Positions 34,947 through 58,425 of a stretch of 64,000 bases of DNA are shown piece by piece. Under the pieces are notes generated by a model. The model saw only the letters and a list, made by a program, of their open reading frames with translations. It was not told the origin of the DNA and ran no database searches. A program made the translations under genes and the position numbers. The DNA is taken from positions 145,470-209,469 of the forward strand of contig CANJSF010000001.1 in assembly GCA_947476925.1 (NCBI GenBank), read 5' to 3'. Position 1 is the stretch's first letter. The number at the start of each line of letters is the position of its first letter. This DNA is from Rhodospirillaceae bacterium (GTDB lineage Bacteria > Pseudomonadota > Alphaproteobacteria > Rhodospirillales > Rhodospirillaceae).

Positions 34947-35438
34947 TTACTGAACAACAGATACGCCACGGCGGTTCTTCGTCCAGCAGCTTTCGTCAGA
35001 GGCGACGCAAGTCGGGCGCTCTTTGCCGTACGAGATCGTCTTGACGCGGCTGGCAGAAACGCCGAGCGAGGTCAGGTATTGCTTGGCGGCATTGGCGCGA
35101 CGTTCGCCCAAGCCCAAGTTGTATTCGCGGGTGCCGCGCTCATCGCAGTGGCCTTCAACGGTCACGGTGCGTGAGGGGTTTTGGTTCAACCAGGCAGCTT
35201 GGCCACGCAGAATGGCTTGAGCGTCAGCACGGAGTTCGAACTTGTCGAAATCGTACATGACGGTATTGCCAACAACGGTGTTGAAGTATTCAACCGAATC
35301 AGGCGCTGGGCCTGTTTTCGGCATCGTTGCAGCCGGCGGTGTTGCGGCTGTTGAGGTCGTGGTGGCTTCTTTCTTCGGGCTGGCGCAAGCAGCGAGCGCG
35401 ACTGCCACGATGACCGCGCTGATAAAGCGGATTTTCAT
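34947..35438 (-). CDS. pal: Peptidoglycan-associated lipoprotein Pal
   Basis: Lipobox VALAAC and the OmpA-like domain TVEGHCDERGTREYNLGLGERRANAAKQYL. Confidence 0.95.
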   Translation of the reverse strand: MKIRFISAVIVAVALAACASPKKEATTTSTAATPPAATMPKTGPAPDSVEYFNTVVGNTVMYDFDKFELRADAQAILRGQAAWLNQNPSRTVTVEGHCDERGTREYNLGLGERRANAAKQYLTSLGVSASRVKTISYGKERPTCVASDESCWTKNRRGVSVVQ

Positions 35439-37901: not shown

Positions 37902-38366
37902 TCATCTTGGAGATCTAAGGGATTTTTTAGGCGGATCTGTGACAAAGGCGACCTTGGTAAAACCCGCCGCCTGAACTTCCGACATGGCAATCATCATGGT
38001 GCCGTAGGGTACATCTTTGTCACCGCGCACATAAATATTAAGGTCTGGGTTGGACTGTTTTGCGCTGGCCAACTTGGCGCGCAGGTCCTCCAGCGCCACC
38101 TTGTTCTCCGGATTATTGAGAAAAAAGGTTCCATCCTTTTGTACAAAGATGGTGAGCGGCTTGTTGTCTTGCGGCAGTGGTTTTGACTTCGCGGTTTGCG
38201 GCAAGTTGACGTTCACCCCCTTCGTCAGCAATGGCGCGGTGATGATAAAAATCACCAGCAGCACCAACATAACGTCGACCATGGGCGTGACGTTGATTTC
38301 AGCGATGGGGCTAAATGACCGCCGATTGGTTTTCCCACCGCCCGCCGATTTGATAAACGCGCCCAT
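37902..38366 (-). CDS. tolR: Tol-Pal system protein TolR (ExbD/TolR family)
   Basis: EINVTPMVDVMLVLLVIFIITAP TM helix with the conserved Asp. It follows tolQ. Confidence 0.93.
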   Translation of the reverse strand: MGAFIKSAGGGKTNRRSFSPIAEINVTPMVDVMLVLLVIFIITAPLLTKGVNVNLPQTAKSKPLPQDNKPLTIFVQKDGTFFLNNPENKVALEDLRAKLASAKQSNPDLNIYVRGDKDVPYGTMMIAMSEVQAAGFTKVAFVTDPPKKSLRSPR

Positions 38367-38369
38367 TGT

Positions 38370-39098
38370 CTAAGTACCCCGCACGTCAAGTTGACGCGAC
38401 AAGATGGCTCCAAACTCACCCGCGAAGTTTTCAAGCCGCACCGCATAGCGCCCAAGATCGCTTGAGATTTTGTTATAAGCGATGACCGCCGGAATGGCTG
38501 CGACCAGCCCGATGGCCGTGGCGAACAACGCTTCGGCGATACCCGGCGCAACGGTGGCCAAGCTGGTATCCGACGTCGCTCCGATGGACGTGAAGGTATT
38601 CATAATCCCCCACACCGTACCAAACAGGCCGAGGAACGGCGCGACCGAACCCGTTGATGCCAAAAAGATCATCCGCCGCTGGAGAATATCCATCTCGCGT
38701 TCGAGGCTAATCTTCATTACGCGGTCGAGACGCTCGCCCAATGTGCTAGCATTGCTGACGGCACCGGGCTTAGTGGCCGAACGTTTCCATTCGCGCATCG
38801 CCGCCACAAAAATAGCCGACATTGGTTCGCGCGGTTTTGCGCCAATGCGCTCGTACAGATCTTCCAATGAACTACCAGACCAGAATTTTTCTTCGAAGTC
38901 CTCGGCCTGGCGAAACAGCGAGCGCAAACGCAAAACTTTGTCAAAAATAATCGCCCAGCTCCACAGCGAGGCCAGCAGCAATCCAAGGATCACCGATTTG
39001 ACAATAAGATCGGCCTGTAAAAACAAGCTCCACGCCGACATGTGATTGACGGCATTGACGGCTGCAAATGCCGTTTCTTGAGTAATTGCGTTCTCCAT
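38370..39098 (-). CDS. tolQ: Tol-Pal system protein TolQ (MotA/TolQ/ExbB family)
   Basis: FLGLFGTVWGIMNTF and GIAEALFATAIGLVAAIPAVIAYN motifs. Confidence 0.95.
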   Translation of the reverse strand: MENAITQETAFAAVNAVNHMSAWSLFLQADLIVKSVILGLLLASLWSWAIIFDKVLRLRSLFRQAEDFEEKFWSGSSLEDLYERIGAKPREPMSAIFVAAMREWKRSATKPGAVSNASTLGERLDRVMKISLEREMDILQRRMIFLASTGSVAPFLGLFGTVWGIMNTFTSIGATSDTSLATVAPGIAEALFATAIGLVAAIPAVIAYNKISSDLGRYAVRLENFAGEFGAILSRQLDVRGT

Positions 39099-47061: not shown

Positions 47062-47439
47062 TCAAGAGCGTTTTGGCTTCCGTCTAGCTGCAAGCTTCGA
47101 CTGATTTGCCTTCAGTTGCGCCTTCACCAACTTGGTGATCAGGCCATAGGGAATGGGCTCATCATAGGGAAATTTCAAATTGCCTTTTGGGCCTGCATAA
47201 CGTGCAGCAAGTTTCTTCAGTTTGGGGTCGCGCGTCGGCGGGAAAAGCCCGATGTGGGATTTGAAGGCTGCGAAGTAAGCGACGATACCGCCTTGCTTGT
47301 AAGACGGGATGCGATAGCTAATCCCCTCCTCGGCGTCGGGCACTGCTTTGCGCACAACGCCGCGCACCTTTCTGAGTAGCCTCTGAACCTTGGGCGGAAA
47401 ACCTGAGATGTAAGTCGCAACAGTATCGGATTTTTTCAT
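47062..47439 (-). CDS. DUF1801 (YdhG-like) domain protein
   Basis: VATYISGFPPKVQRLLRKVRGVVRKAVPDAEEGISY...FAAFKSHIGLF pattern. ATG 47439 overlaps the epmA stop. Confidence 0.75.
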   Translation of the reverse strand: MKKSDTVATYISGFPPKVQRLLRKVRGVVRKAVPDAEEGISYRIPSYKQGGIVAYFAAFKSHIGLFPPTRDPKLKKLAARYAGPKGNLKFPYDEPIPYGLITKLVKAQLKANQSKLAARRKPKRS

Positions 47440-48503
47440 GCCACAGGGGCCCACAGAACGTCGGTAATGTCTGACGCATGTGACGCTAGGATAACCAAGC
47501 GGTCAAAGCCGAGTGCGCATCCCGATGAGGGCGGCAAACCGGCATCCAAAGCAGCCAGAAAGTCCTCGTCCATCGCCGGCGCGGTTCCATACAAATCTTG
47601 ATGCATTTTGCGGTCATGGGCAAAGCGGCGGCGCTGCTCAGACACGTCGGTCAATTCGCCAAAGGCGTTGGCGAGTTCGACCCCACAAGCATAAAGCTCG
47701 AAGCGCTCGGCGACACGCGGGTCGGCGGCTTTGCGCTGGGCTAATGCAGCCAGACAGGCCGGGTATTCGTATAAAATGGTTGCCCGCCCCTCGCCCAACT
47801 TGGGTTCGACTTTATCAAGCATCACCCGGAAGAAGATGTCCTCCCAGGTATCCGACACTGACGCCTGAACACCCGCCTGTTTTGCGGCGCTTCGCAAACG
47901 ATCGGGGTTAGGCATCGGCGCGTCGGGGTTATCGATGCTGGCCAGTAAATCAATGCCCGCATACGTGGCAAAGGCCTGTTGAACCGTTAGCCTTTCGGGT
48001 TCCAAGTTCGGGTCGCACACCTTGCCGTGCCATTTCAGCAAGCCATCATGAGCCTGCGTCCGCTGGGCCGCTTTGACTACCATGCCCAGAACGCCTGCGC
48101 AGTCGCGCATCATCGCCTCGTATGTCTCGTTGGCGCGGTACCATTCCAGCATGGTGAATTCGGGGTGGTGCAATGGGCTGCGCTCGCCATCGCGGAAAAC
48201 GCGGGCCATCTGGTAAATCTTGGTCATTCCGCCCACCAGCAGCTTCTTCATGGCAAACTCGGGAGAGGTATGAAGCGCTCGAACGCTGGCCCCTTGCGCC
48301 AAGGGCTCGTGCAGCGTGGTCGTCAGGGCCTGGATATGGCGCTCGATTCCGCCCGAAACTTGCAAAATGGGGGTTTCCACATCGACAAACCCCTCGGCCT
48401 GAAAATAAGCGCGCACGGCCTTGAGCCCAGCGCGGCGGCTGTCGAGGAATGGGCGGCGGCGGGCCAGGCTTTCGGGGTGCCACCAAGGAGATTTCAGGGA
48501 CAT
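47436..48503 (-). CDS. epmA: Elongation factor P--(R)-beta-lysine ligase (EpmA/PoxA/GenX)
   Basis: Class II LysRS catalytic-core paralogue lacking an anticodon domain: FVDVETPIL, LHTSPEFAMKKLL, RVFRDGE...HHPEFTMLEWY, GCALGFDRL. Confidence 0.9.
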   Translation of the reverse strand: MSLKSPWWHPESLARRRPFLDSRRAGLKAVRAYFQAEGFVDVETPILQVSGGIERHIQALTTTLHEPLAQGASVRALHTSPEFAMKKLLVGGMTKIYQMARVFRDGERSPLHHPEFTMLEWYRANETYEAMMRDCAGVLGMVVKAAQRTQAHDGLLKWHGKVCDPNLEPERLTVQQAFATYAGIDLLASIDNPDAPMPNPDRLRSAAKQAGVQASVSDTWEDIFFRVMLDKVEPKLGEGRATILYEYPACLAALAQRKAADPRVAERFELYACGVELANAFGELTDVSEQRRRFAHDRKMHQDLYGTAPAMDEDFLAALDAGLPPSSGCALGFDRLVILASHASDITDVLWAPVA

Positions 48504-48612
48504 AGCCTAGGTTTCTCCTCGGTTGCGCGGGCTAGGTCAACCTGTTACAAGCGCCCCGCTTTTCCCAAGCAAAATCAACGCAAACCTCAATTCTTACTCT
48601 CTAGGCGCACCG

Positions 48613-49179
48613 ATGAAGATTCAAGCCAATACCATGCGCGGCGGCATGGTGATCGAACACCAAGGCAAGCAATGGACTGTTTTGAAAATCCAATTGTTGC
48701 AACCCGGCAAGGGCGGCGCCTTTATTCAGGTGGAAATGCGCGATGTCGCGACCGGTACTAAGTCGCAAGACCGTTGGCGCACCGCCGATACCGTCGAGCG
48801 CCTCGAAGTGCGCGAAATCGATTGTTCGTTCTTGTTCCGCGATGGCGATGTTTTCACCTTTATGGACTCAACCACCTTCGACCAATTCAACGTACCGGGC
48901 GAACTGCTGGGCGAAAAAGCCGCCTTCCTGCAAGACAACATGGAAGTCTCGGTCAACTTCATTGAAGGCAAGGCCGTGGCCGTGAACTTGCCGCAGTCGG
49001 TAACGCTGAGAATTGTTGAGGCCGATCCGGTGGTCAAAGGCCAAACCGCGTCGTCTTCTTACAAGCCCGGCTTGCTTGAAAACGGCTTGAAAATCATGAT
49101 CCCGCCGTTCGTCACATCGGGCGACCGGATTGTGGTGAACACCGAAGACATCACCTACGTCGAACGCGCCAAAGACTAG
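48613..49179 (+). CDS. efp: Elongation factor P
   Basis: MKIQANTMRGGMVIEHQGKQWTVLK...QPGKGGAFIQVEMRD with the modifiable Lys in PGKG. Start set at ATG 48613; the ORF-track extension to 48523 is rejected. Confidence 0.95.
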   Translation: MKIQANTMRGGMVIEHQGKQWTVLKIQLLQPGKGGAFIQVEMRDVATGTKSQDRWRTADTVERLEVREIDCSFLFRDGDVFTFMDSTTFDQFNVPGELLGEKAAFLQDNMEVSVNFIEGKAVAVNLPQSVTLRIVEADPVVKGQTASSSYKPGLLENGLKIMIPPFVTSGDRIVVNTEDITYVERAKD

Positions 49180-49206: not shown

Positions 49207-50001
49207 ATGGCGCTTCGCTCGGCCCTGATGACAGTGATGGTCGCGGCCGCCGAGAAGGCCGCCAAAGCGCTGAAACGCGACTTCGGCGAAGTCGAGCAAT
49301 TGCAGGTCTCGCGCAAAGGGCCCAGCGATTACGTCTCGGCGGCTGACATCAAAACCGAAAAGATGCTGGTGGCGGAGCTGACAAAAGCCCGCCCGCATTT
49401 TGGTTTTGTGCTTGAAGAAGGCGGCACCATTGCAGGAACCGATACCGAGCACCGCTGGATTATCGACCCCATCGACGGCACCACGAACTTTTTGCACGGC
49501 ATTCCACATTTCGCGATGTCGATCGCGCTCCAGCGCGGCGATGAGATTATGGCCGGGGTCGTTTACAACCCGATCACCGAAGATTGGTTCATCGCCGAAA
49601 AAGGCATTGGCGCATTTCACAACAATCGGCGCATGCGCGTCTCGGCCCGCCGAAACTTGGATGATGCGGTAGTGGCCACAGGCATTCCGCACAAAGGCTG
49701 CCCCGGCCATGACGTTTTCATTCAACAATCTCAGCGCGTCATGAGCGCCACGGCCGGCATTCGCCGTTTTGGCACAGCGTCGTTGGATTTAGCATTCGTT
49801 GCGGCTGGGCGCTTTGATGCCTATTGGGAAATGGGCTTGAAGCCCTGGGATATCGCCGCTGGCGTATTGTTGGTCCAAGAAGCTGGTGGCTTTAGCGCTG
49901 ACCTCCATGGCCCCGGTAGCCCCCTGCTGACGGGTAACATCCTGGCCACCAACGCCGACCTACACAGCCCCTTGCGCAAATGCATTTTGGGCCAATCCTG
50001 A
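49207..50001 (+). CDS. suhB: Inositol monophosphatase family protein (SuhB-like)
   Basis: WIIDPIDGTTNF and WDIAAG motifs. Confidence 0.92.
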   Translation: MALRSALMTVMVAAAEKAAKALKRDFGEVEQLQVSRKGPSDYVSAADIKTEKMLVAELTKARPHFGFVLEEGGTIAGTDTEHRWIIDPIDGTTNFLHGIPHFAMSIALQRGDEIMAGVVYNPITEDWFIAEKGIGAFHNNRRMRVSARRNLDDAVVATGIPHKGCPGHDVFIQQSQRVMSATAGIRRFGTASLDLAFVAAGRFDAYWEMGLKPWDIAAGVLLVQEAGGFSADLHGPGSPLLTGNILATNADLHSPLRKCILGQS

Positions 50002-50211
50002 CCTTGGATTGCGCAGCACCCCTCGTCATAATTAAGCCCTAGGTTTCGTACATAACTGCTTAATATGTTTAAGATAACTGAGTTTGGGGATTTGTGTGGG
50101 TTGTACCGCGTGAAGGCCCTGATGTACGGTGAGCATGGGCATACCCGGCCGCCGCAAATAATGCTGGGGGCGCGTGTGACGGGCAATAACCAAGGCCAAC
50201 GACAGTTGACG

Positions 50212-51237
50212 ATGACAATGAGCAAGCCATCGAAATCTTTCTTATCCACGTTGATGCTGGGAACAGCCCTCGCCTGTTTCAGCGGTGGGGCGTTCGCGCA
50301 ATCATCGTCCGCGGTCACAGTTGACCTCAGCGCCATTGATCCGCCACCGGCCGCGACGTCAGGTCGCATCGTTTTGCGCCCGCCTATGGGCACAGCTCCG
50401 GTGACCAATCTGCTGTCTCTGCGCGCTCCCGAGCCAGTAAAAGCTGTCGAACCCGTAAAGAAAGCCGCACCAAAACCAAAGCCGGTTGTTGCGCAAGCCG
50501 AGCCGGCGCCGATGCCCGCAGTTGAGCCCGCGCCAGCTAAGAAGCCCGAACCTGCGGCTGTGGCTGCAACGCCTACCCCGGCACCGGCCGCAAAAGAGCC
50601 CAAGCCTGCTGCCCCCCTGACCCCGCCAGCGCCCGTTGCACCTGTTGCCGCAACGGCGGCAAAGCCAGCGCCAGCGCCTGCTCCGGCTCCGGCTCCTGCC
50701 CCAGCTCCTGTAGCATCTCCCGTGGCTGCAAAACCTGCGCCAGTGCCGCCATCGGCTGCGCCAACAAGCAACGCAACGGTAGCAGTGCCGTCGGCTGCGG
50801 CTGCGCGCAGCGCCAAGCAAGAACCCGTCGGCCCAGTGGCCTCGCCTTTGCCCGACAATCAGCAAACAGCGGCTCTGCCGGCCCAAACAAAAGCGCAAGT
50901 GATTACAACGCCGGCTGAAGATATTGCAGCCTCGCTCACTATTCCTTTTGCGCCGGGTATCATCGAGATCGATGTGAGCCGCCAAGGCACAGTGAAAGAC
51001 TTGGCCCAGCGCATGAGCGCCGATAAGTCGTTGCGCGTGCAGTTGATGGCCTACGCCACGGACCCCGAGAAAAACACCAGCAAGGCGCGCCGGTTAGCAC
51101 TTGATCGCGCCATCGCCATTCGCAACATGCTGATTGAATCCGGTGTTGAACGCACACGCATCGAAGTGCGCGCACTGGGCGACCAGGGCGAAGGCGGTAA
51201 TCTCGACCGAGTTGATGCGGTTGCCATCAAACGTTAG
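50212..51237 (+). CDS. Secreted Pro/Ala-rich protein with a C-terminal OmpA-like domain
   Basis: Signal peptide MTMSKPSKSFLSTLMLGTALACFSGGAFAQ, about 170 aa of P/A/K-rich low complexity including an APAPAPAPAPAPAP run, and a C-terminal SKARRLALDRAIAIRNMLIESGVERTRIEVRALG (OmpA_C-like). Start set at ATG 50212. Confidence 0.7.
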   Translation: MTMSKPSKSFLSTLMLGTALACFSGGAFAQSSSAVTVDLSAIDPPPAATSGRIVLRPPMGTAPVTNLLSLRAPEPVKAVEPVKKAAPKPKPVVAQAEPAPMPAVEPAPAKKPEPAAVAATPTPAPAAKEPKPAAPLTPPAPVAPVAATAAKPAPAPAPAPAPAPAPVASPVAAKPAPVPPSAAPTSNATVAVPSAAAARSAKQEPVGPVASPLPDNQQTAALPAQTKAQVITTPAEDIAASLTIPFAPGIIEIDVSRQGTVKDLAQRMSADKSLRVQLMAYATDPEKNTSKARRLALDRAIAIRNMLIESGVERTRIEVRALGDQGEGGNLDRVDAVAIKR

Positions 51238-51284
51238 GACTAAACTCAGCGGTCGTTCTTTAACAACGCGAGATCAAACACGCG

Positions 51285-52481
51285 ATGACGAGTAGCAAGA
51301 CCTACCTCACGCGCATGGTGCTGTTTCTGATTGTCGTCGGTCTTGGCGCCGCACTGATGGCCGAGAGATTGCTCGGGATTTTCTTGGTCAACCCGCTGCT
51401 CAACGGCGCCATTTTTGGCGTCATCCTTGTCGGCATCATCTTGAACTTTCGCCAAGTGATTTTGCTGGGCCCCGAGATGCGCTGGCTGGACAATTTCCGC
51501 AGCTCGCTGGCCACCGATAGCACCATGCTTTCTGAGCAGCGCACTGACACCTCGGAAGATAAAATTCAGTTGCTCTCGCCCATGGCTCGCATGTTGGCCG
51601 ACAGGCGCGGTAAAGGGCGCATAAGCCTCAGTGCCCCTGCCCTGCGAACGTTGCTCGATGGCATTTCATCGCGCTTGGGCGAAAGCCGCGATTTGGGGCG
51701 TTACTTCACAAGCCTTTGTATTTTTCTCGGATTGCTTGGCACTTTCTGGGGTTTGCTGGGTACGATCAACGCTGTCAGCGACGTGATCAAAAGCCTGACC
51801 GTGTCCGGCACCGATGTCACCGCCATGTTTGACGAGTTGAAAACCGGCCTTGAAGCGCCGTTGTCGGGCATGGGCACCGCGTTTTCGTCGTCGCTCTTCG
51901 GGTTAGCGGGCTCTTTGGTTTTGGGCTTTCTCGATTTGCAATCGGGCCAGGCCCAGAACGCATTTTTCAACGACCTGGAAGAATGGCTGTCGGGACTCAC
52001 CCGATTATCGTCGGGCACCGCGGTTAGCGAAGGCGAGCAAAGCGTGTCGGCTTATACCGAGGCGTTATTGGAACAGACCGCCGAAAGCCTAGATCAATTG
52101 CAACGCATTTTGGCGCGCACCGAACAAAGTCGTGTGGCATCGAACGAACACTTTATCGCGATGAACGAAAAGCTCACGACCCTCACGGAACAAATGCGTA
52201 TTGAAACGCAAGTTCTGCTGCGATTGGCCGAAAACCAAAAAGAACTTACGCCGATTCTGAAGCGAATGAACGAAACGCCGCTTGTCCAAAGCCAAAGCGC
52301 AGGCATGGACGAAGCCACGCGCAACCATATCCGCAATATCGATGGCGCGCTTGTGCGGTTGGCTAACAATCTCGAATCTGGCCGCGAAGACATGGTGCGC
52401 GAGATGCGCTCAGAGATCAAATTGCTGGCCAAGACCCTTGCGGCCAACGAGCGCCGCGACGACGCGACGAGCGACGATTAA
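51285..52481 (+). CDS. MotA/TolQ/ExbB-family proton-channel protein with a long C-terminal coiled-coil tail
   Basis: Two N-terminal TM helices and a second TM pair carrying CIFLGLLGTFWGLLGT and GMGTAFSSSLFGLAGSLVLGF (compare TolQ in this window). These are followed by about 150 aa of heptad-rich sequence. Confidence 0.8.
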   Translation: MTSSKTYLTRMVLFLIVVGLGAALMAERLLGIFLVNPLLNGAIFGVILVGIILNFRQVILLGPEMRWLDNFRSSLATDSTMLSEQRTDTSEDKIQLLSPMARMLADRRGKGRISLSAPALRTLLDGISSRLGESRDLGRYFTSLCIFLGLLGTFWGLLGTINAVSDVIKSLTVSGTDVTAMFDELKTGLEAPLSGMGTAFSSSLFGLAGSLVLGFLDLQSGQAQNAFFNDLEEWLSGLTRLSSGTAVSEGEQSVSAYTEALLEQTAESLDQLQRILARTEQSRVASNEHFIAMNEKLTTLTEQMRIETQVLLRLAENQKELTPILKRMNETPLVQSQSAGMDEATRNHIRNIDGALVRLANNLESGREDMVREMRSEIKLLAKTLAANERRDDATSDD

Positions 52482-52494
52482 GGGAACAGCATCG

Positions 52495-53697
52495 GTGCGC
52501 GCCACTCATCGTCGGCCCCATGAGGTCATCAACATTTGGCCCGGATGGGTTGATGCCCTATCGACGTTGCTCATCATTTTTATCTTCGTGTTGCTGGTTT
52601 TTGTGTTGGGTCAGTTCTTTCTGGGCCAAGCATTGTCGGGCCGCGAGCAAGCCCTGAGCATCTTGAACAAGCGGGTCGCCGAAATGGGCGAGATGCTGTC
52701 GATGGAACGCCAAAACCGCAGCGAACTTGAAGGCAGCGTTGCGCGTTTGTCCGATCAATTACGCGTGGCCAATCAAGATCTCGGCATGTTGACCCAACTG
52801 CGCATCGACTATCGCGATTTGGAAGGTCGGTTCGCTGAAACCTCCACGCAGGCCGGCCAACTTAAATCGTCGCTGGATGCGGCCGTCAAACAAGCGGCGA
52901 GCGATAGCAGCACATTGGCCAAGCAAGCCGAACAACTGGCCTTGATGCAAAATCAAGTCAAAGCGCTTGAAGCTCTGAAGTCGGAGTTAGAAAAACAAGT
53001 TGCCGGCTTGGGTGCGAAAACAGCGACTAGCGACAGCGCGATTGCCGCCGAACGCCGCCTGACAGCCGATGCGCAGGCCCAAGCCGCGCTGATGAGCCAA
53101 CAGTTACAAGAGGTGCAACAAGAGCTGGCGCGCTTAGCCGCAACCTTGGACGCCTCCGACAAACTCTCGGCGGCTCAAAAGGCGCAAATTTCGGATCTGG
53201 GCAAACGCATGAACCGCGCGCTGGCGGGAAAAGTGCAAGAACTGCAGCGCTATCGCTCGGAGTTTTTTGGCAAATTGCGCGATATCTTGGGCACGAGACC
53301 CGGCGTCTCGGTTGTCGGCGACAGATTTGTCTTTCAGTCCGAGGTGTTATTTGCTTCCGGATCGTCGGAACTGGGCGTCGAAGGTCAGCGACAGTTAGTG
53401 CAATTGGCCCAGACGCTGATTGAGATCAGCAAGCAAATCCCCGCCGAGGTGAATTGGATTTTACGCGTCGATGGCCACACCGACACTGTTCCCATTTCAA
53501 CGGCCGTTTTCCCCTCGAATTGGGAACTCTCGGCGGCCCGCGCGCTATCGGTGGTGAAGTTCTTGGCCGCCCAGGGCATCCCGGCCGAGCGACTAGCCGC
53601 GGCCGGCTTTGGGGAATTCCAGCCCCTCGACAAGACCAACACCCCCCAGGCACGAGCCAAAAACCGCAGAATTGAGCTAAAATTGGACCAACGCTAA
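52495..53697 (+). CDS. MotB/OmpA-like peptidoglycan-binding protein with a coiled-coil linker of about 230 aa
   Basis: GTG 52495 follows AGGGA, 14 nt after the upstream stop. Single TM helix with Asp (WPGWVDALSTLLIIFIFVLLVF), a long coiled coil, and a C-terminal OmpA/MotB domain (NWELSAARALSVVKFL...NRRIELKL). The ORF-track extension to 52282 overlaps the upstream gene. Confidence 0.8.
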   Translation: MRATHRRPHEVINIWPGWVDALSTLLIIFIFVLLVFVLGQFFLGQALSGREQALSILNKRVAEMGEMLSMERQNRSELEGSVARLSDQLRVANQDLGMLTQLRIDYRDLEGRFAETSTQAGQLKSSLDAAVKQAASDSSTLAKQAEQLALMQNQVKALEALKSELEKQVAGLGAKTATSDSAIAAERRLTADAQAQAALMSQQLQEVQQELARLAATLDASDKLSAAQKAQISDLGKRMNRALAGKVQELQRYRSEFFGKLRDILGTRPGVSVVGDRFVFQSEVLFASGSSELGVEGQRQLVQLAQTLIEISKQIPAEVNWILRVDGHTDTVPISTAVFPSNWELSAARALSVVKFLAAQGIPAERLAAAGFGEFQPLDKTNTPQARAKNRRIELKLDQR

Positions 53698-53813
53698 ACC
53701 CTCAACCGAGCCTTGAACCGGCTGGGCTGAGCCTGTATAAGGCGCGCTCTTTTGCCGGATTGAGCCGTGCAAATCAGCCAATATAAGGTGCCCTTGCGGC
53801 ACGGGATTAGACG

Positions 53814-54038
53814 ATGAAAAAAGACATTCACCCCGATTATCACGATATCAAAGTCGTCATGACCGATGGCACCGAATACATGACCCGCTCGACATACGGC
53901 AAAGCCGGCGATGTGCTGCGATTGGAAATTGACCCCAAAACTCACCCAGCGTGGACCGGTGTTCATCGCCTGAACGACGCTGGCGGTCAGTTGGCCAAGT
54001 TCAATAAGCGCTTCAAGGGCTTTGGCGAGAAAAAGTAG
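53814..54038 (+). CDS. rpmE: 50S ribosomal protein L31
   Basis: [19 protein letters not shown]...[10 protein letters not shown]...KFNKRF, the Cys-less form. Confidence 0.95.
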
Positions 54039-54065
54039 TTAATCAATACAACTACTACATATAGT

Positions 54066-54095
54066 GGCCGCATCGGTATCGATGCGGCCTTTTTT
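54066..54095 (+). terminator. Rho-independent terminator of rpmE
   Basis: ggccgcatcg-gtat-cgatgcggcc gives a 10-bp perfect stem followed by tttttt. Confidence 0.85.
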
Positions 54096-54257
54096 GTGTT
54101 ATTTTGCAACCGCGAATAGGCCAAAACGTTAATAGTCATCAAAACGCCATTTGAATCCGAACAAATGGGGTGACCGAACAAAGGGTCAACGACGGCCGCG
54201 TTGTTTGAGGATGACTGAAACGTTGTTAACGGAGAGCCCTGCGGGGTCCAGACCGCC

Positions 54258-56162
54258 ATGTGCGCGTTGCTTGCGATAGTTCAATTTGAAGTTCATTTTT
54301 TCCAAGACGGCCGCTGGATGCTGCAATCCCGGTTTCCGGGAGATGAACGCCAGGCAGCTATTCGCGATGCCGTCAGCGTCGAAGCCAGCACGCGCCGCCC
54401 AACCAAGGTCGTCAAAGAAACTTACATTCCGCACGAAAACCGCAGTGAAACTGTGACGATCTATACCGGGCCGTTGCTGAAAGCCGCGATGGATAAATCC
54501 AAAGCGCTTCAAGGCATTCCCCCTCCTGCTCGCGTGATGTCCCGTCCGGGAAAAAGCGTGCCGCAAACAACACATGCTAAAACAGCAGCGCCAAGACTGG
54601 GACCCAACATCGGCGACCTATTCTGGCGCAGCATCATCTCGATGGGCCTGAGCCTCACGGCCGCGACAATCGTCACAGCAATGGTGTCGTGGTTGATGAC
54701 CCACCTGCCCGATTTTGGGATCGCCATTGATGCTGGTAAATCCTCGGCGATCCTGACGCTCACGTACGCCGTGGTTTTTTTGCTGGGCGTCATGTCGATG
54801 TTCCGTTTTGGGACGCCAATTAAGCGGCTCATATCGAATCTATGGCAAAGCGCCTACACCGAAACAACGCAGGCAAAACAAACTCTGCGGGCCAAGCTTC
54901 CGGGCTTGCGTCTAAAGTCAAAACGCTCGACGCAGGCCGCTTTCGAACAACAGCAAACTTTGGCCGAAATGAAGTTGCGCCGGGGTGACCCAGCCCCAAC
55001 GGTAGACGATGACCATGCGAACCTTGATGTGGTCGTGATTGATGAAATGCCAAGTGCTGTCCAACAACTCAGCAAAGCAGCACCCGAGCCCGCTCAACAG
55101 CAAGCAGCATCACCTCAAGAGGCACAGTTTACGCCCCTTCCAGCTAAGCTCGAAGTCGAGTTGCCCAAACCACTTGATGACAGTGCTGAAGCATCGTTCG
55201 AAGCCGGCCAGGTGAGCCCAGCCGCTCCACTGCCGCCTACGGCGAAAGGTGTAGTGCCGCCTTCAGCGACATTTAGCCCAGCTATAAATGAACTTCAGCG
55301 CAGCATGGCTCTGCGCTTCGTCACCGAAGTCATTTTACCGCAGATTGGCCGCGCGCAAGATGACCCAGTGGCGCGTCGTGGCGCCGCGCTTTTCCTGACT
55401 GGTGCAATGACTCAGCTCGCCGGCAGTTCGAACCTCAACCCGCCATTGACGATGAATCTGATTTCAACGTCGGTCATGGCCGCCCTACCGCGACATGCCT
55501 TTGATGCATTTATGAACCAATACGACACGCATGTATCTAATCCCAGCAATGGCGCAATTATTGATGATGGCCGGCAAGCGATGTCGCGGTTTCTTGGCGG
55601 TCAAAAAAATGAAGGCGCTTTGGCGCTTAGCCTCAAGGCATGGCGCGTTCCCATGCCTGCGGTCCTTGCGCCATCGCAGGCAAATCGCGCGAATAATTCC
55701 GCTACCCCAACGGACTATTATTTGCTTACCGAATTTAGAAACAGCGACGCGTTCATGATGGATTTCCACAACCATATTGTTCGCCAAGCCGTCGAGACAA
55801 GCGATGGGCGTGAAATCAAACATACCGGTCGGGGCATCCTTGCGCGTTTCGAGTACGCCGATTTAGCGATACAAGCCGCGATGTCGATTGCCGCGAAAAT
55901 CAAATCCTCACCCGGCGTACCTCAAGGCGTGTTTGTCGCTGTGGCGTTAAACGCAGGGTTCGGTGCCGTCGACGACCCGCTTCTCTCGTCAACCATCACG
56001 AAAAGCGCGCAAACCGTTCTTGATACCGTCGCCTCAGGTTCAGTTGTGTGCGACGCGCACGTGCTTGCAAACGCCCACGCGACTTCACATTTGGTCAGCC
56101 GCCCGTTGACTGGCAATTGGCTCTTATTGAACGAGAAGTCGCTCGTCACTGCCGTTGGTTAA
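54258..56162 (+). CDS. Membrane-anchored class III nucleotidyl-cyclase-like protein with a degenerate active site
   Basis: 634 aa with the same architecture as the downstream paralogue. C-terminal GREIKHTGRGILARF and AVALNAGFG align to GREVKHTGDGIMAVF and RIGINAGEA, but the second metal Asp is Arg and FTD is TEF. Two TM helices lie near residues 130-190. Confidence 0.7.
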   Translation: MCALLAIVQFEVHFFQDGRWMLQSRFPGDERQAAIRDAVSVEASTRRPTKVVKETYIPHENRSETVTIYTGPLLKAAMDKSKALQGIPPPARVMSRPGKSVPQTTHAKTAAPRLGPNIGDLFWRSIISMGLSLTAATIVTAMVSWLMTHLPDFGIAIDAGKSSAILTLTYAVVFLLGVMSMFRFGTPIKRLISNLWQSAYTETTQAKQTLRAKLPGLRLKSKRSTQAAFEQQQTLAEMKLRRGDPAPTVDDDHANLDVVVIDEMPSAVQQLSKAAPEPAQQQAASPQEAQFTPLPAKLEVELPKPLDDSAEASFEAGQVSPAAPLPPTAKGVVPPSATFSPAINELQRSMALRFVTEVILPQIGRAQDDPVARRGAALFLTGAMTQLAGSSNLNPPLTMNLISTSVMAALPRHAFDAFMNQYDTHVSNPSNGAIIDDGRQAMSRFLGGQKNEGALALSLKAWRVPMPAVLAPSQANRANNSATPTDYYLLTEFRNSDAFMMDFHNHIVRQAVETSDGREIKHTGRGILARFEYADLAIQAAMSIAAKIKSSPGVPQGVFVAVALNAGFGAVDDPLLSSTITKSAQTVLDTVASGSVVCDAHVLANAHATSHLVSRPLTGNWLLLNEKSLVTAVG

Positions 56163-56529: not shown

Positions 56530-58425
56530 ATGGCTCGCGACAGCTACGAAGTTTACTACTACCAAAACAGTCGCTGGTCGGTTCACGCCAGCTACGAAGC
56601 AGACGCGCGAGAGGAATCCGTCGCCGAGGCGATGAACGTCGAAGCGAAGTTCGGCTATCCGTGTCGAGTCATCAAAGAGACATTTTTTCCCGAGACAAAC
56701 ACGTCTGAAGAAGTGGTCGTTTGGCAAAGTGCAAAAGCCAAAAAGATGGCCGATTCAGACAATATGTTTGGCAACAAGCAACAGGCTGCGCCTGCCAAAC
56801 CCGCTGCCAAAAAAAGCCCCCCTCCGCCGCCGCCGCCAAAGCGCGACGAGAAAAAGCCAAAACGCCCGCCGCCGAGTCCGATCAAAAAATCAACGGGCAA
56901 GGCCAAGAAGAAGAAAACGAAAAAAGGCTTTTTCGGAAAATTGCTGACATCGATCAGCATCAGCGCCGCCGTTGCTATCGGTTCGGCCGCGTTTACCGTG
57001 TTGTTGATTTTGTATCTGCAAGATCAATCGTACATCGCCCCCGAGAATCGTACGCCGATCATTTTCGGTACATTTGTGACGGTGTTTTTCGTCACGTTGC
57101 TCTACTCATTGAACCGAGAGTTCAGCCTGCTTGGCACAGCTTTGAAATCTGAAGCCGCGCCGGCGCGCGCCAGTTCCGCAATGCAAAGTCCCATGATGCG
57201 CGCCGCAGCAGCCCCGCCGACGCAAGATGCTGAGTTCGACCAAGTTGAGATCGAACGGGGACAAGAAATAGACGAAGAATTTGAAACCGAAACCGCCGAG
57301 GACGAAGACGCAGAGTTGCCGGCCGAACTTGATGCGGACATGACAGAGACGACGGAACCTGAGGCCTCGCAGCCAGCGTCGGAGCCAGAACCTGAACCAC
57401 AGCCTGAGCCAGTACGAGCGGAACCTCAACCAGCGCCTCAAGCTGTTTCGAAGCCTGAGCCAAAAGCGGAGAAAAAGCCGCCTGAGCAAAGCCCGAACGA
57501 CGATGAAGCTCGGCAACTGTTTGCGGGCTTTGTCAATCAAGCGAACGCAACCGTGGCCAAAGAATTGGGTGAACTCAATGCTTTCTCACGTTTTGGGATG
57601 AGCCTGTTGCTGGCCGGCGCGGTGTCATCTCTCGGTCAATCCAAACGCCTCGGGCGCGAGCCTCAGCTCGCCGTGCTGAAACAAGGACTCAGCGGTATCG
57701 GCAATACGCCTGACCGGACGCAAACCTTCTGCGCCGAGCTACCCGGTTACGGCAAGAACCCGCGCTATACAGGTATGATTCAAAGCGGATCTAAATCCAT
57801 GACCGCCTATTTGAAAGGCGATTCCAACGCCACCAATGGGATGGGAGCAATGTTGGCCGACTGGTCGAAGCCCGAAAAACGCCCGTCAGTGCCATCCGTC
57901 TTCACATTCCTCTTTACCGATATTGCAGGCTCGACCGCAATGACGCAGCAATTGGGCAATGCTGGCGCGCAAAAAGTAGTTCGTGCGCACAACACAGCGG
58001 TGCGCGGCGCGATTGCCAAAGTCAAAGGTCGCGAAGTCAAACATACAGGCGACGGCATCATGGCCGTGTTTAGTGATGCGGCCTCAGCAGTGAACGCATC
58101 AATCCAGATGCAGCGCGATATTGCCGCTCATAACAAAGCCAACCCATCACTTCCGTTAGTTGTGCGCATTGGGATCAACGCTGGTGAAGCTGTTGAAGAA
58201 GAAAACGATTTCTTTGGCGCTGCAGTGCAAATGACTGCGCGAACATGCTCAAAAGCCACCGATGGAAACATTTGGGTCACTCAGTCCGTCGTTGATGGCT
58301 GCAAAGGACAACGCTTGGGCTTTATCCCGCGCGGAAAGTTTGAAATGAAGGGCATCCAAGGTGCCCGCCCGCTTTATGAGGTCGGCTGGACCGAGAAGCA
58401 CAAGAACGAACTGGCAGATCTTTAG
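56530..58425 (+). CDS. Membrane-anchored class III adenylate/guanylate cyclase
   Basis: The C-terminal FTFLFTDIAGSTAM ... KHTGDGIMAVF ... VRIGINAGEAV...DFFGAAVQMTAR ... MKGIQGARPLYEV is a class III cyclase domain. There are two TM helices, an acidic EPEPEPQPEP linker and an N-terminal domain of about 70 aa shared with the upstream paralogue. Confidence 0.85.
   Translation: MARDSYEVYYYQNSRWSVHASYEADAREESVAEAMNVEAKFGYPCRVIKETFFPETNTSEEVVVWQSAKAKKMADSDNMFGNKQQAAPAKPAAKKSPPPPPPPKRDEKKPKRPPPSPIKKSTGKAKKKKTKKGFFGKLLTSISISAAVAIGSAAFTVLLILYLQDQSYIAPENRTPIIFGTFVTVFFVTLLYSLNREFSLLGTALKSEAAPARASSAMQSPMMRAAAAPPTQDAEFDQVEIERGQEIDEEFETETAEDEDAELPAELDADMTETTEPEASQPASEPEPEPQPEPVRAEPQPAPQAVSKPEPKAEKKPPEQSPNDDEARQLFAGFVNQANATVAKELGELNAFSRFGMSLLLAGAVSSLGQSKRLGREPQLAVLKQGLSGIGNTPDRTQTFCAELPGYGKNPRYTGMIQSGSKSMTAYLKGDSNATNGMGAMLADWSKPEKRPSVPSVFTFLFTDIAGSTAMTQQLGNAGAQKVVRAHNTAVRGAIAKVKGREVKHTGDGIMAVFSDAASAVNASIQMQRDIAAHNKANPSLPLVVRIGINAGEAVEEENDFFGAAVQMTARTCSKATDGNIWVTQSVVDGCKGQRLGFIPRGKFEMKGIQGARPLYEVGWTEKHKNELADL

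What the first reader, a model, noticed from the sequence alone, without database searches (positions are those of the whole stretch)
50212..53697. Orphan MotAB/TolQR/ZorAB-like stator module with coiled-coil extensions on both subunits, next to a Pro/Ala-rich OmpA-like protein
Three co-directional, tightly spaced genes form this cluster. (i) 50212..51237 encodes a secreted protein with a signal peptide, a P/A-rich spacer of about 170 aa (including an AP-repeat run) and an OmpA-like C-terminus. (ii) 51285..52481 encodes a 4-TM protein whose TM3/TM4 block (CIFLGLLGTFWGLLGT ... GMGTAFSSSLFGLAGSLVLGF) parallels the genuine TolQ in this same window (FLGLFGTVWGIMNT ... GIAEALFATAIGLVAAIP). Unlike TolQ, it carries an extra heptad-rich cytoplasmic tail of about 150 aa. 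(iii) 52495..53697 encodes a single-TM protein with the channel Asp (WPGWVDALSTLL; compare TolR MVDVMLVLL), about 230 aa of apparently uninterrupted coiled coil, and an OmpA/MotB peptidoglycan-binding domain. The real tolQ-tolR-tolA-tolB-pal cluster is at 34.9-39.1 kb, so this pair is not Tol. No flagellar, chemotaxis, TonB/receptor, gliding or Zorya effector (zorC/zorD-like) genes flank it; the neighbours are suhB and rpmE. A cytoplasmic tail on the A subunit is the hallmark of ZorA in Zorya anti-phage systems. A very long periplasmic coiled coil on the B subunit is not typical of MotB, ExbD or TolR. My inference is an ion-driven 5:2-type motor with an unknown output, possibly envelope tethering or sensing together with the OmpA-like neighbour.
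Basis: partly seen in the sequence, partly recalled or inferred. Interest (0 to 1): 0.7.

Follow-up and report, generated by a model that had tools for sequence, protein, structure and literature searches.

The report
Conserved alphaproteobacterial ZorAB-like stator pair
The three genes are real, and two of them encode a proton-channel "stator" pair related to flagellar, Tol and Zorya motors that is kept at the same chromosomal spot in several alphaproteobacterial lineages, is mislabelled as flagellar MotA/MotB, and has no known function.

Summary
Observation confirmed.

- **A (51285-52481):** a very divergent MotA/ExbB/TolQ-superfamily protein. Pfam scores it below threshold. All 32 relatives tested match PADLOC ZorA models. 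Foldseek returns only ExbB/TolQ/MotA/PomA chains.
- **B (52495-53697):** has an invariant transmembrane Asp, a long proline-free helical stalk and a MotB-type peptidoglycan-binding domain. It passes NCBIfam NF006543.
- **Conservation:** the pair is not peculiar to this genome. More than 8000 homologues exist. The order efp-suhB-A-B-rpmE recurs in Rhodospirillales, Acetobacteraceae, Rhizobiaceae and SAR116. There is no phage or defence-island context.
- **What it is not:** it is not Tol (the real TolQR is in the window), not flagellar, and not a Zorya system (no effectors, short tail, long B stalk).
- **P1:** the OmpA-like neighbour is an optional lineage-specific partner, found in 45 of 80 loci. 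It carries a conserved N-terminal motif.
- **Experimental data:** the only data found are on Komagataeibacter "motAB", which I infer to be orthologues. Overexpression gave elongated cells and polar foci, and disruption mutants were viable.
- **Best reading:** a housekeeping, peptidoglycan-anchored, proton-driven rotary unit whose length-constrained cytoplasmic tail is the output. The 5:2 stoichiometry, rotation and physiological role are inferred, not shown.

The parts
50212..51237 (+). P1: secreted protein made of a signal peptide, a conserved short motif, an Ala/Pro-rich spacer and a divergent OmpA-like domain. It is an optional, lineage-specific neighbour of the pair.
   Evidence: ORF. Pfam OmpA 39.3 bits at residues 246-325. 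Composition. An OmpA-like C-terminus lies upstream of A in 45/80 loci. The public gene call starts at 50065.
50314..50340 (+). P1 post-signal-peptide motif VTVDLSAID (family pattern VxVDLSV[LI]D)
   Evidence: The motif follows a signal peptide in at least 19 of 35 P1-bearing loci and in 0 of 30 loci without P1. Its partner is unknown.
50947..51186 (+). P1 OmpA-like domain
   Evidence: PF00691 39.3 bits against a cut-off of 27.2. It is not detected by the B-family HMM, so it is a different branch of OmpA-like domains.
51285..52481 (+). A subunit: divergent MotA/ExbB/TolQ-superfamily, ZorA-like membrane protein, 398 aa
   Evidence: PADLOC ZorA1 PDLC00597 E 8.6e-15, residues 138-342, and 32/32 relatives match. 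Pfam MotA_ExbB scores 14.7 bits, below the 22.9 cut-off, for the window protein; the S. meliloti orthologue scores 23.9. The top 50 Foldseek hits are all ExbB/TolQ/MotA/PomA chains.
51699..51944 (+). A channel core: TM3 (FLGLLGTFWG, Thr153), periplasmic loop, TM4 (GMGTAFSSSLFGLAGS, Thr198/Ser203)
   Evidence: These columns are invariant in alignments A1 and A3. hhalign matches TolQ here, and so does the HMM hit to TolQ.
51945..52478 (+). A cytoplasmic helical tail (residues about 221-398), with conserved HIRNID and EIKLLAKT motifs near the end
   Evidence: AF2 helices at 178-244, 256-330 and 343-393. Conservation. Tail length is constrained: 140-196 residues, with 49/73 at 170-179. The proximal tail lies inside the ZorA1 profile match.
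52495..53697 (+). B subunit: MotB/ZorB-like protein, 400 aa, GTG start
   Evidence: NCBIfam NF006543 471.4 bits against a cut-off of 305. An identical 400-aa public protein exists. A and B are adjacent in 78/80 loci.
52537..52629 (+). B transmembrane helix with the channel Asp20 (codon 52552-52554) in WPGWVDALSTLL
   Evidence: W15, P16, G17, V19 and D20 are invariant in 32/32 sequences. Hydropathy segment 14-49.
52630..53289 (+). B periplasmic helical stalk (residues about 46-265)
   Evidence: No Pro between residues 17 and 268. AF2 helices at 17-176, 184-223 and 226-265. Indels of 7 residues in relatives. Length is very variable across the family.
53305..53691 (+). B MotB-type peptidoglycan-binding (OmpA-like) domain
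   Evidence: PF00691 64.8 bits. Sequence hits to PDB MotB, MotS, PomB and TssL domains at about 1e-15. Foldseek TM-scores of 0.77-0.80 to MotS, PomB and the DVU_2228 MotB-like domain. N342, L345 and R349 are invariant.

Best explanation
A and B form a housekeeping stator-type ion-channel complex of Alphaproteobacteria. It is a distant relative of MotAB, TolQR and above all ZorAB.

Inferred mechanism:
1. A B dimer sits inside a ring of A subunits, probably A5B2.
2. B is fixed to the cell wall by its MotB-type domain, which is carried on a long, length-variable helical stalk.
3. Protons pass via B-Asp20, which faces A-Thr153 and A-Ser203.
4. This flow drives the A ring and its length-constrained cytoplasmic tail of about 175 residues around B.
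5. The tail is the output element and acts on an unidentified cytoplasmic or inner-membrane partner.

The physiological role is most likely in envelope, cell-shape or polar organisation. It is not flagellar rotation, Tol-Pal function or phage defence. P1 is an optional periplasmic accessory in some lineages.

Shown here: homology, conserved channel residues, domain architecture, conserved synteny and distribution.
Inferred: stoichiometry, rotation, the tail as output, and the physiological role.
For: A belongs to the superfamily and is nearest to ZorA:
- PADLOC ZorA1 E 8.6e-15, covering TM3-TM4 plus about 120 tail residues. All 32 relatives match ZorA1 and ZorA3 models.
- The S. meliloti orthologue passes the Pfam MotA_ExbB cut-off, and SAR116 members carry precomputed PF01618 hits (marked weak).
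- The top 50 Foldseek hits are only ExbB, TolQ, MotA and PomA chains.
- The family HMM hits the window's TolQ.

Channel residues are invariant: B D20, and A T153, T198 and S203.

B's C-terminal domain is MotB-type and keeps the N..L...R wall-binding residues.

The context is housekeeping, not mobile:
- More than 8000 homologues and 739 clusters at E<=1e-30.
- A and B are adjacent in 78/80 loci, next to efp, suhB and rpmE. The same order occurs in S. meliloti and SAR116.
- There are no phage matches for A.

Tail length is constrained while stalk length is free.

Komagataeibacter hansenii has no flagella, and its 'motA/motB' genes are inferred orthologues (primer-encoded termini against my Acetobacteraceae loci). 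Overexpression elongates cells, GFP fusions are polar, and disruption mutants are viable (PMC6570709; PMC7347698).
Against: - The window's A is below the Pfam gathering score (14.7 against 22.9).
- A family profile finds no solved structure by sequence.
- The AF2 monomer of A has low confidence (pLDDT 59.8), so the Foldseek matches are weak (best E 7e-3).
- No multimer model was possible, so stoichiometry and tail oligomerisation are untested.
- No partner for the tail was identified; the neighbours are unrelated housekeeping genes.
- The Komagataeibacter data come from overexpression and GFP fusions, are mechanistically uninformative, and their orthology is inferred from 7-residue termini only.
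- A stalk of 150-430 helical residues has no obvious role in this model.
Confidence: 0.6

Rival explanations
1. Periplasmic force transducer, Tol/Ton-like in logic. The output is on the periplasmic side. The motor moves or tensions the long B stalk. Together with P1 (N-terminal strand motif, Pro/Ala-rich spacer, OmpA-like anchor), it remodels or tethers the wall and outer membrane.
For: - B has a long helical stalk.
- P1 has a TonB/TolA-like Pro-rich spacer and a conserved strand-like N-terminal motif.
- There is no terminator between P1, A and B.
- Cell-length phenotypes occur in Komagataeibacter.
Against: - P1 is absent from 35/80 loci and from the S. meliloti and SAR116 loci.
- Stalk length is unconstrained (271-598 residues from the WPG motif to the stop), whereas the cytoplasmic tail is tightly constrained.
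- In known 5:2 motors of the MotB/ZorB type, the wall-bound B subunit is the static part (PMC11946911).
Confidence: 0.2
2. Passive inner-membrane-to-wall tether or gated ion channel without rotation. A/B is a structural anchor or leak channel that has lost motor function.
For: - A is very divergent from the working motors.
- B is dominated by a structural coiled coil and a wall-binding domain.
Against: - The Asp and the Thr/Ser that face it in working motors are strictly invariant across lineages.
- The cytoplasmic tail is strongly conserved. Neither feature is needed for a passive tether.
Confidence: 0.1
3. Effector-less or cryptic Zorya-type anti-phage sensor.
For: The best profile matches of A and B are ZorA1/ZorA3 and ZorB3/ZorB1 models. 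A cytoplasmic tail on A is the Zorya hallmark (PMC11946911).
Against: - No ZorC, D, E, F or G-like genes flank the pair. P1 has no PADLOC match, and the neighbours are suhB and rpmE.
- The chromosomal position is fixed across lineages.
- The tail is about 175 residues, whereas the ZorA tail projects about 70 nm. ZorB has no stalk.
- There are no phage or plasmid-borne copies.
Confidence: 0.05
4. Divergent flagellar stator, as many database names say (MotA / chemotaxis protein MotB).
For: - Source annotations give these names.
- B's wall-binding domain is most similar to MotS, MotB and PomB domains.
- A has four predicted transmembrane helices, like MotA.
Against: - A matches no NCBIfam MotA model. 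B's MotD and MotB scores are far below the cut-offs (116 against 283).
- The cytoplasmic loop is only about 78 residues.
- The pair never lies in a flagellar cluster.
- Non-flagellated Komagataeibacter keeps the pair.
- S. meliloti has separate, well-studied flagellar mot genes (established knowledge, not tested here).
Confidence: 0.03

Closest known systems
ZorA-ZorB core of Zorya anti-phage systems (EcZorAB, PDB 8QYD; PMC11946911)
   Same: - The A subunit's two channel helices plus the first part of the cytoplasmic tail match ZorA profiles.
- B has a transmembrane Asp and a MotB-like wall-binding domain. Full-length ZorB chains appear among the Foldseek hits.
- A helical cytoplasmic tail follows the last transmembrane helix.
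   Different: - The tail is about 175 residues; the ZorA tail projects about 70 nm.
- A has four predicted transmembrane helices, not three.
- B has a 150-430-residue helical stalk, whereas the ZorB domain is fused to the helix without a linker.
- There are no effector genes.
- The position is core, syntenic and vertically inherited, not a defence island.
Flagellar stators MotAB / PomAB / MotPS
   Same: - A has four transmembrane helices.
- B has the motif [WY]-x-D-x-[LM]-[ST] around the Asp.
- The wall-binding domain has the MotB fold (TM-score 0.77-0.80).
   Different: - There is no torque-generating cytoplasmic domain.
- No MotA family model is matched.
- There is no flagellar gene context.
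- The pair is present in bacteria without flagella.
TolQR / ExbBD
   Same: - The FLGLLGTxWG helix is shared.
- The best Foldseek matches of the A model are ExbB and TolQ chains.
   Different: - B has no ExbD/TolR fold.
- There is no TolA or TonB partner.
- The genuine TolQR-Pal cluster lies at about 34.9-39.1 kb in the same window.
Komagataeibacter hansenii 'MotA/MotB' (Jacek et al., PMC6570709)
   Same: Inferred orthologues. The primer-encoded termini are VTRPTTY and EFRLTDR-stop. They match Acetobacteraceae members of this family: MTRPTSYLIRM and NRRIEFRLTDR-stop. The genes are adjacent in a non-flagellated alphaproteobacterium.
   Different: They are shorter (348 and 321 aa). The paper interprets them as motility genes. 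No mechanism, structure or point mutants are reported.

Membership tests
MotA/ExbB/TolQ proton-channel superfamily (Pfam PF01618) | Score at or above the Pfam gathering cut-off | tested here: inconclusive
   The window's A scores 14.7 bits against a cut-off of 22.9. The S. meliloti orthologue scores 23.9 bits, and SAR116 members carry precomputed PF01618 hits (marked weak). The family sits on the edge of the model.
MotA/ExbB/TolQ proton-channel superfamily (Pfam PF01618) | Two C-terminal channel helices with conserved Thr/Ser facing the B-subunit Asp, and the overall fold | tested here: met
   T153, T198 and S203 are invariant. hhalign and the HMM match TolQ. The top 50 Foldseek hits are all ExbB, TolQ, MotA or PomA, although the model is of low confidence.
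5:2 ion-driven rotary motors | A5B2 stoichiometry with a B dimer inside an A pentamer | not testable with these tools
   Only single-chain prediction was available.
5:2 ion-driven rotary motors | Universally conserved Asp in the B transmembrane helix | tested here: met
   D20 is invariant in 32/32 sequences. It is also present in the Acetobacteraceae, Azospirillum and Roseospira orthologues.
NCBIfam NF006543 (PRK09039.1-2, peptidoglycan-binding protein) | Score above the curated cut-off over the full length | tested here: met
   471.4 bits against a cut-off of 305, residues 6-400 on profile positions 8-350.
Zorya anti-phage system | ZorA and ZorB profile matches | tested here: met
   PADLOC ZorA1 at 8.6e-15 and ZorB3 at 8.7e-25. 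32/32 members match. The NCBIfam ZorA_4 model scores only 13 bits against a cut-off of 500.
Zorya anti-phage system | Adjacent effector genes (ZorC/ZorD, ZorE, or ZorF/ZorG) | tested here: not met
   The neighbours are suhB, P1 (no PADLOC hit) and rpmE. The same holds in related loci.
Zorya anti-phage system | Very long ZorA tail (about 70 nm) and a ZorB wall-binding domain fused to the helix without a linker | tested here: not met
   The tail is 140-196 residues across the family. B has a helical stalk of about 220 residues. Zorya features are taken from PMC11946911.
Flagellar stator MotAB/PomAB | Match to MotA and MotB family models above cut-off | tested here: not met
   A matches no MotA model at E<=0.1. 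B scores 116 against 283 for MotD and 72 against 301 for MotB.
Flagellar stator MotAB/PomAB | Flagellar or chemotaxis gene context, and dependence of motility on the pair | tested here: not met
   The context is efp, suhB and rpmE in 80 loci. The pair is retained in non-flagellated Komagataeibacter. Dependence of motility on the pair was not tested.
Tol-Pal / Ton | B subunit with the ExbD/TolR fold and a TolA or TonB partner | tested here: not met
   B has no PF02472 hit. The genuine TolR is at 37902-38366.

The most novel reading that the evidence does not exclude
The pair is a housekeeping relative of ZorAB that is widespread in Alphaproteobacteria. It would be a wall-anchored rotary unit that reports or acts on envelope state through a short, probably pentameric, cytoplasmic tail. 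It would therefore be a fourth physiological use of 5:2 motors, besides motility, Ton/Tol and defence. Zorya's sensor module would then be a defence-adapted offshoot of, or sister to, such housekeeping motors.
Probability: 0.2. Interest if true: 0.8.

Novelty: new variant of a known kind. Interest (0 to 1): 0.58.

Why it matters
Ion-driven stator units are known to power flagella, gliding and type IX secretion, Ton and Tol, and most recently Zorya defence. This pair is a further architecture: a short ZorA-like tail plus a long stalk on the B subunit. It is kept at one chromosomal position in several alphaproteobacterial lineages, including abundant marine SAR116 and rhizobia. Yet it is annotated as flagellar MotA/MotB or as a generic peptidoglycan-binding protein, and no mechanistic study was found.

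Working out its output would fill a gap in alphaproteobacterial envelope and cell biology. It would correct a widespread misannotation. It could also show where the Zorya sensor module came from. The family is easy to test, because it occurs in genetically tractable species.

Tried and rejected
- **PDB sequence searches.** Neither the A-family profile nor the TM3-tail fragment found a relative.
- **AF2 monomer of A.** Confidence was low (pLDDT 59.8), so I used only the identity of the Foldseek hits, not the geometry.
- **Literature.** They found no mechanistic paper on this family. 'MotA/TolQ/ExbB' cannot be searched as a phrase because of the slashes. PRK09039 gave only irrelevant hits.
- **S. 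meliloti Rgs/Tol-Pal paper.** I checked it as a lead and found no mention of such proteins.
- **CcfM.** I half-remembered CcfM, a membrane-anchored coiled-coil protein of Magnetospirillum, as a possible B relative. I could not check this because the paper is not held.
- **The listing of cluster members.** It gave no organism names for representative clusters, so taxonomic breadth rests on locus titles and three annotated records.
- **Rejected readings.** I rejected the flagellar stator, Tol/Ton paralogue and Zorya system readings. The reasons are in the membership table.
- **Promoter scan.** It found no sigma-70-like site in 49800-54300, so operon boundaries remain untested.

Full report
**1. 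Observation**

The three co-directional ORFs are present as described.

P1 (50212-51237):
- It begins with a typical signal peptide that ends in AFA|Q.
- Residues 31-230 are 28% Ala and 24% Pro. The underlying DNA holds short 6/12/18-nt tandem repeats at 50664-50710.
- The C-terminus passes the Pfam OmpA cut-off (39.3 bits against 27.2, residues 246-325).
- Public gene calls start this gene at 50065 (390 aa).

A (51285-52481, 398 aa) and B (52495-53697, 400 aa, GTG start) are identical to public gene calls.

The spacers are 47 nt between P1 and A, 13 nt between A and B, and 116 nt between B and rpmE. No terminator-like hairpin separates the three genes. The only strong one follows rpmE at 54066-54089. 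Co-transcription is therefore plausible but untested.

- TolQ at 38370-39098, PF01618 120.8 bits.
- TolR at 37902-38366, ExbD 113.7 bits.
- A Pal-like OmpA domain at 34947-35438.

**2. The A subunit**

A is a real but very divergent member of the MotA/ExbB/TolQ superfamily.

Evidence that it is divergent:
- Pfam MotA_ExbB scores only 14.7 bits against a cut-off of 22.9.
- No NCBIfam MotA, TolQ or ExbB model is matched.
- A profile of 32 family members finds no solved structure by sequence, even at E<=1.

Evidence that it belongs:
- The PADLOC ZorA1 model PDLC00597 matches residues 138-342 at E 8.6e-15. All 32 relatives match ZorA1 and ZorA3 models, the best at 2e-15.
- The S. meliloti orthologue passes the Pfam cut-off with 23.9 bits. 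SAR116 members carry precomputed PF01618 hits (marked weak).
- The family HMM hits only the window's TolQ apart from itself (E 3.6e-5, spanning A's TM2 to TM3). hhalign aligns the FLGLLGTxWG helix.
- The AF2 monomer is poor (pLDDT 59.8). Even so, its 50 best Foldseek matches in the PDB are exclusively ExbB, TolQ, MotA and PomA chains (best E 7e-3).

Predicted topology is four transmembrane helices: about 8-33, 37-60, 140-165 and 195-218. A 78-residue cytoplasmic loop and a 175-residue helical tail complete the protein.

The residues that face the B-subunit Asp in working motors are invariant. These are T153 in TM3, and T198 and S203 in TM4. By direct inspection, S203 aligns with the channel Thr of TolQ's last helix, and T153 with the Thr of FGTVWG.

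**3. The B subunit**

- B passes the NCBIfam equivalog NF006543 (PRK09039.1-2, 'peptidoglycan-binding protein') with 471.4 bits against a cut-off of 305. The family is therefore already catalogued.
- Its transmembrane helix carries the invariant motif W15-P16-G17-x-V19-D20.
- There is no proline between residues 17 and 268.
- AF2 (pLDDT 72) predicts one helix from residue 17 to 176, then helices at 184-223 and 226-265, then an OmpA-like fold at 271-399.
- That domain is of the MotB type. Sequence hits to MotB, MotS, PomB and TssL domains are around 1e-15. Foldseek TM-scores are 0.77-0.80 to MotS, PomB and a Desulfovibrio MotB-like domain, and full-length ZorB chains are also matched.
- The wall-binding residues N342, L345 and R349 are invariant. 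They correspond to the N152, L155 and R159 that were mutated in ZorB (PMC11946911).
- Close relatives are 390, 397, 400 or 407 residues long, with 7-residue indels inside the stalk, as expected of a coiled coil.

**4. P1**

P1 is a partner only in part of the family. An OmpA-like C-terminus lies directly upstream of A in 45 of 80 related loci.

The following loci lack it, and in several of them suhB abuts A:
- Acetobacteraceae and Defluviicoccus.
- S. meliloti.
- SAR116.

Right after the signal peptide comes a strand-like motif, VxVDLSV[LI]D (VTVDLSAID in the window). It occurs in at least 19 of 35 P1-bearing loci and in 0 of 30 loci without P1. The Ala/Pro-rich spacer and the OmpA-like domain follow it.

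The motif's partner is unknown. A docking role by strand addition, as for TonB boxes or the TolB N-terminus, is speculation on my part.

**5. Distribution and context**

- Both A and B saturate the 8000-hit limit of the homologue search.
- A family profile finds 3010 clusters at 50% identity with E<=1e-3, and 739 with E<=1e-30.
- In the 80 best loci, A and B are adjacent in 78; the other two contigs are truncated. efp and suhB lie upstream in 49-54 loci, and rpmE downstream in 32. These loci come from Rhodospirillales, Azospirillum, Acetobacteraceae, Kiloniellales, Defluviicoccus and others.
- S. meliloti shows suhB, A, B, an ABC exporter on the other strand, and rpmE. The order is identical in a SAR116 (Puniceispirillum) genome.
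- Phage genomes hold no match to A. The only matches in the plasmid collection are chromosome-sized records from Shinella and Sinorhizobium.
- This is the signature of an old, vertically inherited housekeeping locus, not of a defence island.

**6. Experimental literature**

Within the searchable library, the only work touching the family is on Komagataeibacter hansenii. This is a non-flagellated acetic acid bacterium whose only 'motility-like' genes are an adjacent motA/motB pair (PMC6570709).

The cloning primers encode a MotA N-terminus of V-T-R-P-T-T-Y and a MotB C-terminus of E-F-R-L-T-D-R-stop. The Acetobacteraceae members of this family in my loci read MTRPTSYLIRM and NRRIEFRLTDR-stop. 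I therefore infer that these are orthologues.

Reported results:
- Overexpression elongates the cells and increases colony spreading.
- GFP fusions are polar.
- Disruption mutants are viable and make denser cellulose.

These data argue against a flagellar role and hint at cell-shape or polar biology. They say nothing about mechanism.

A recent phylogenetic survey of MotAB relatives notes non-flagellar homologues of unknown function, but it left ZorAB out of its trees (PMC12505986).

**7. Mechanism**

Shown here:
- Homology of both subunits to stator units.
- Invariance of the Asp and of the Thr/Ser residues.
- A MotB-type wall-binding domain.
- Conserved synteny.

Inferred: an A5B2 complex in which proton flow through B-D20 turns the A ring around the wall-anchored B dimer.

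The family-wide length statistics point to the cytoplasmic tail as the output:
- The tail after TM4 is 140-196 residues, with 49 of 73 at 170-179.
- B measured from its WPG motif to the stop ranges from 271 to 598 residues (median 386).
- The two lengths are uncorrelated (r = 0.00).

The proximal tail lies inside the ZorA profile match. The distal helix carries strongly conserved polar motifs (HIRNID, EIKLLAKT) in Rhodospirillales, Acetobacteraceae, Azospirillum and Kiloniella. The shorter S. meliloti tail lacks them.

A straight stalk of 150-430 helical residues would measure 22-64 nm. That far exceeds the roughly 9 nm from the inner membrane to the wall quoted for E. coli. The stalk must therefore fold back, tilt or lie in the plane of the wall. 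Its role is unexplained.

**8. Comparison with known systems**

- It works most like ZorAB: a wall-anchored B and a rotating A with a cytoplasmic tail. It fails the defining features of a Zorya system. There are no effector genes. The tail is about 175 residues rather than about 70 nm long. B has a stalk where ZorB has no linker. A has four rather than three predicted transmembrane helices. The locus is core and syntenic.
- It is not a flagellar stator. No MotA model is matched, B is far below the MotB and MotD cut-offs, there is no flagellar context, and the pair is present in a non-flagellated genus.
- It is not Tol or Ton. B lacks the ExbD fold, and the true Tol cluster is in the same window.

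**9. Novelty and interest**

The gene family is known to databases and is widely misnamed, so this is not a new gene. As a machine, it is an uncharacterised variant of the 5:2 stator kind with its own architecture and a broad alphaproteobacterial distribution. I therefore rate it 'new variant of a known kind' and moderately interesting (0.58).

The reasons for not scoring higher are:
- Every functional statement beyond homology is inference.
- The stoichiometry could not be modelled.
- The taxonomic breadth beyond the lineages listed was not established.

Noticed in passing
window 54258-56162 (+) and 56530-58425 (+): Two large paralogous membrane proteins lie downstream of rpmE (28% identity over 214 aa, E 2e-14). 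The second has a class III adenylate/guanylate cyclase domain (PF00211, 58 bits). The first has no Pfam hit. Both recur downstream of rpmE in 11-12 of 80 related loci.
   Followed up: partly
window 50065-50211: Public gene calls extend P1 by 49 residues upstream of its signal peptide (390 aa against 341 aa). This is probably an over-long start call.
   Followed up: partly
L081 8056-9870 and L085 8946-10766, compared with window 53698-53813: In S. meliloti and SAR116, an ABC exporter of about 606 aa sits on the opposite strand between B and rpmE. The window has only a 116-nt spacer there, so this lineage lacks or has moved that gene.
   Followed up: no
window 47436-48503 (-) and 48607-49179 (+): An EpmA/GenX-like tRNA-synt_2 protein is divergently transcribed from efp. 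The pairing is kept in 17 of 80 related loci.
   Followed up: no
window 49821-50858 (-): A 345-aa ORF lies antisense to suhB's end and to the Ala/Pro-rich part of P1. It is Gly/Ala-rich and is most likely a shadow ORF of the GC-rich repeat region.
   Followed up: no
window 52455-52477: An 8-nt tandem repeat (CGCGACGA, 3 copies) encodes the acidic, poorly conserved C-terminal end of A.
   Followed up: no
L082 1006-1525 (window roughly 44-45 kb region upstream): A ZapA gene, preceded by a 62-aa ORF, lies a few kb upstream of the efp-suhB-A-B block. It recurs near the block in SAR116. Its relevance to the cell-length phenotypes is unknown.
   Followed up: no
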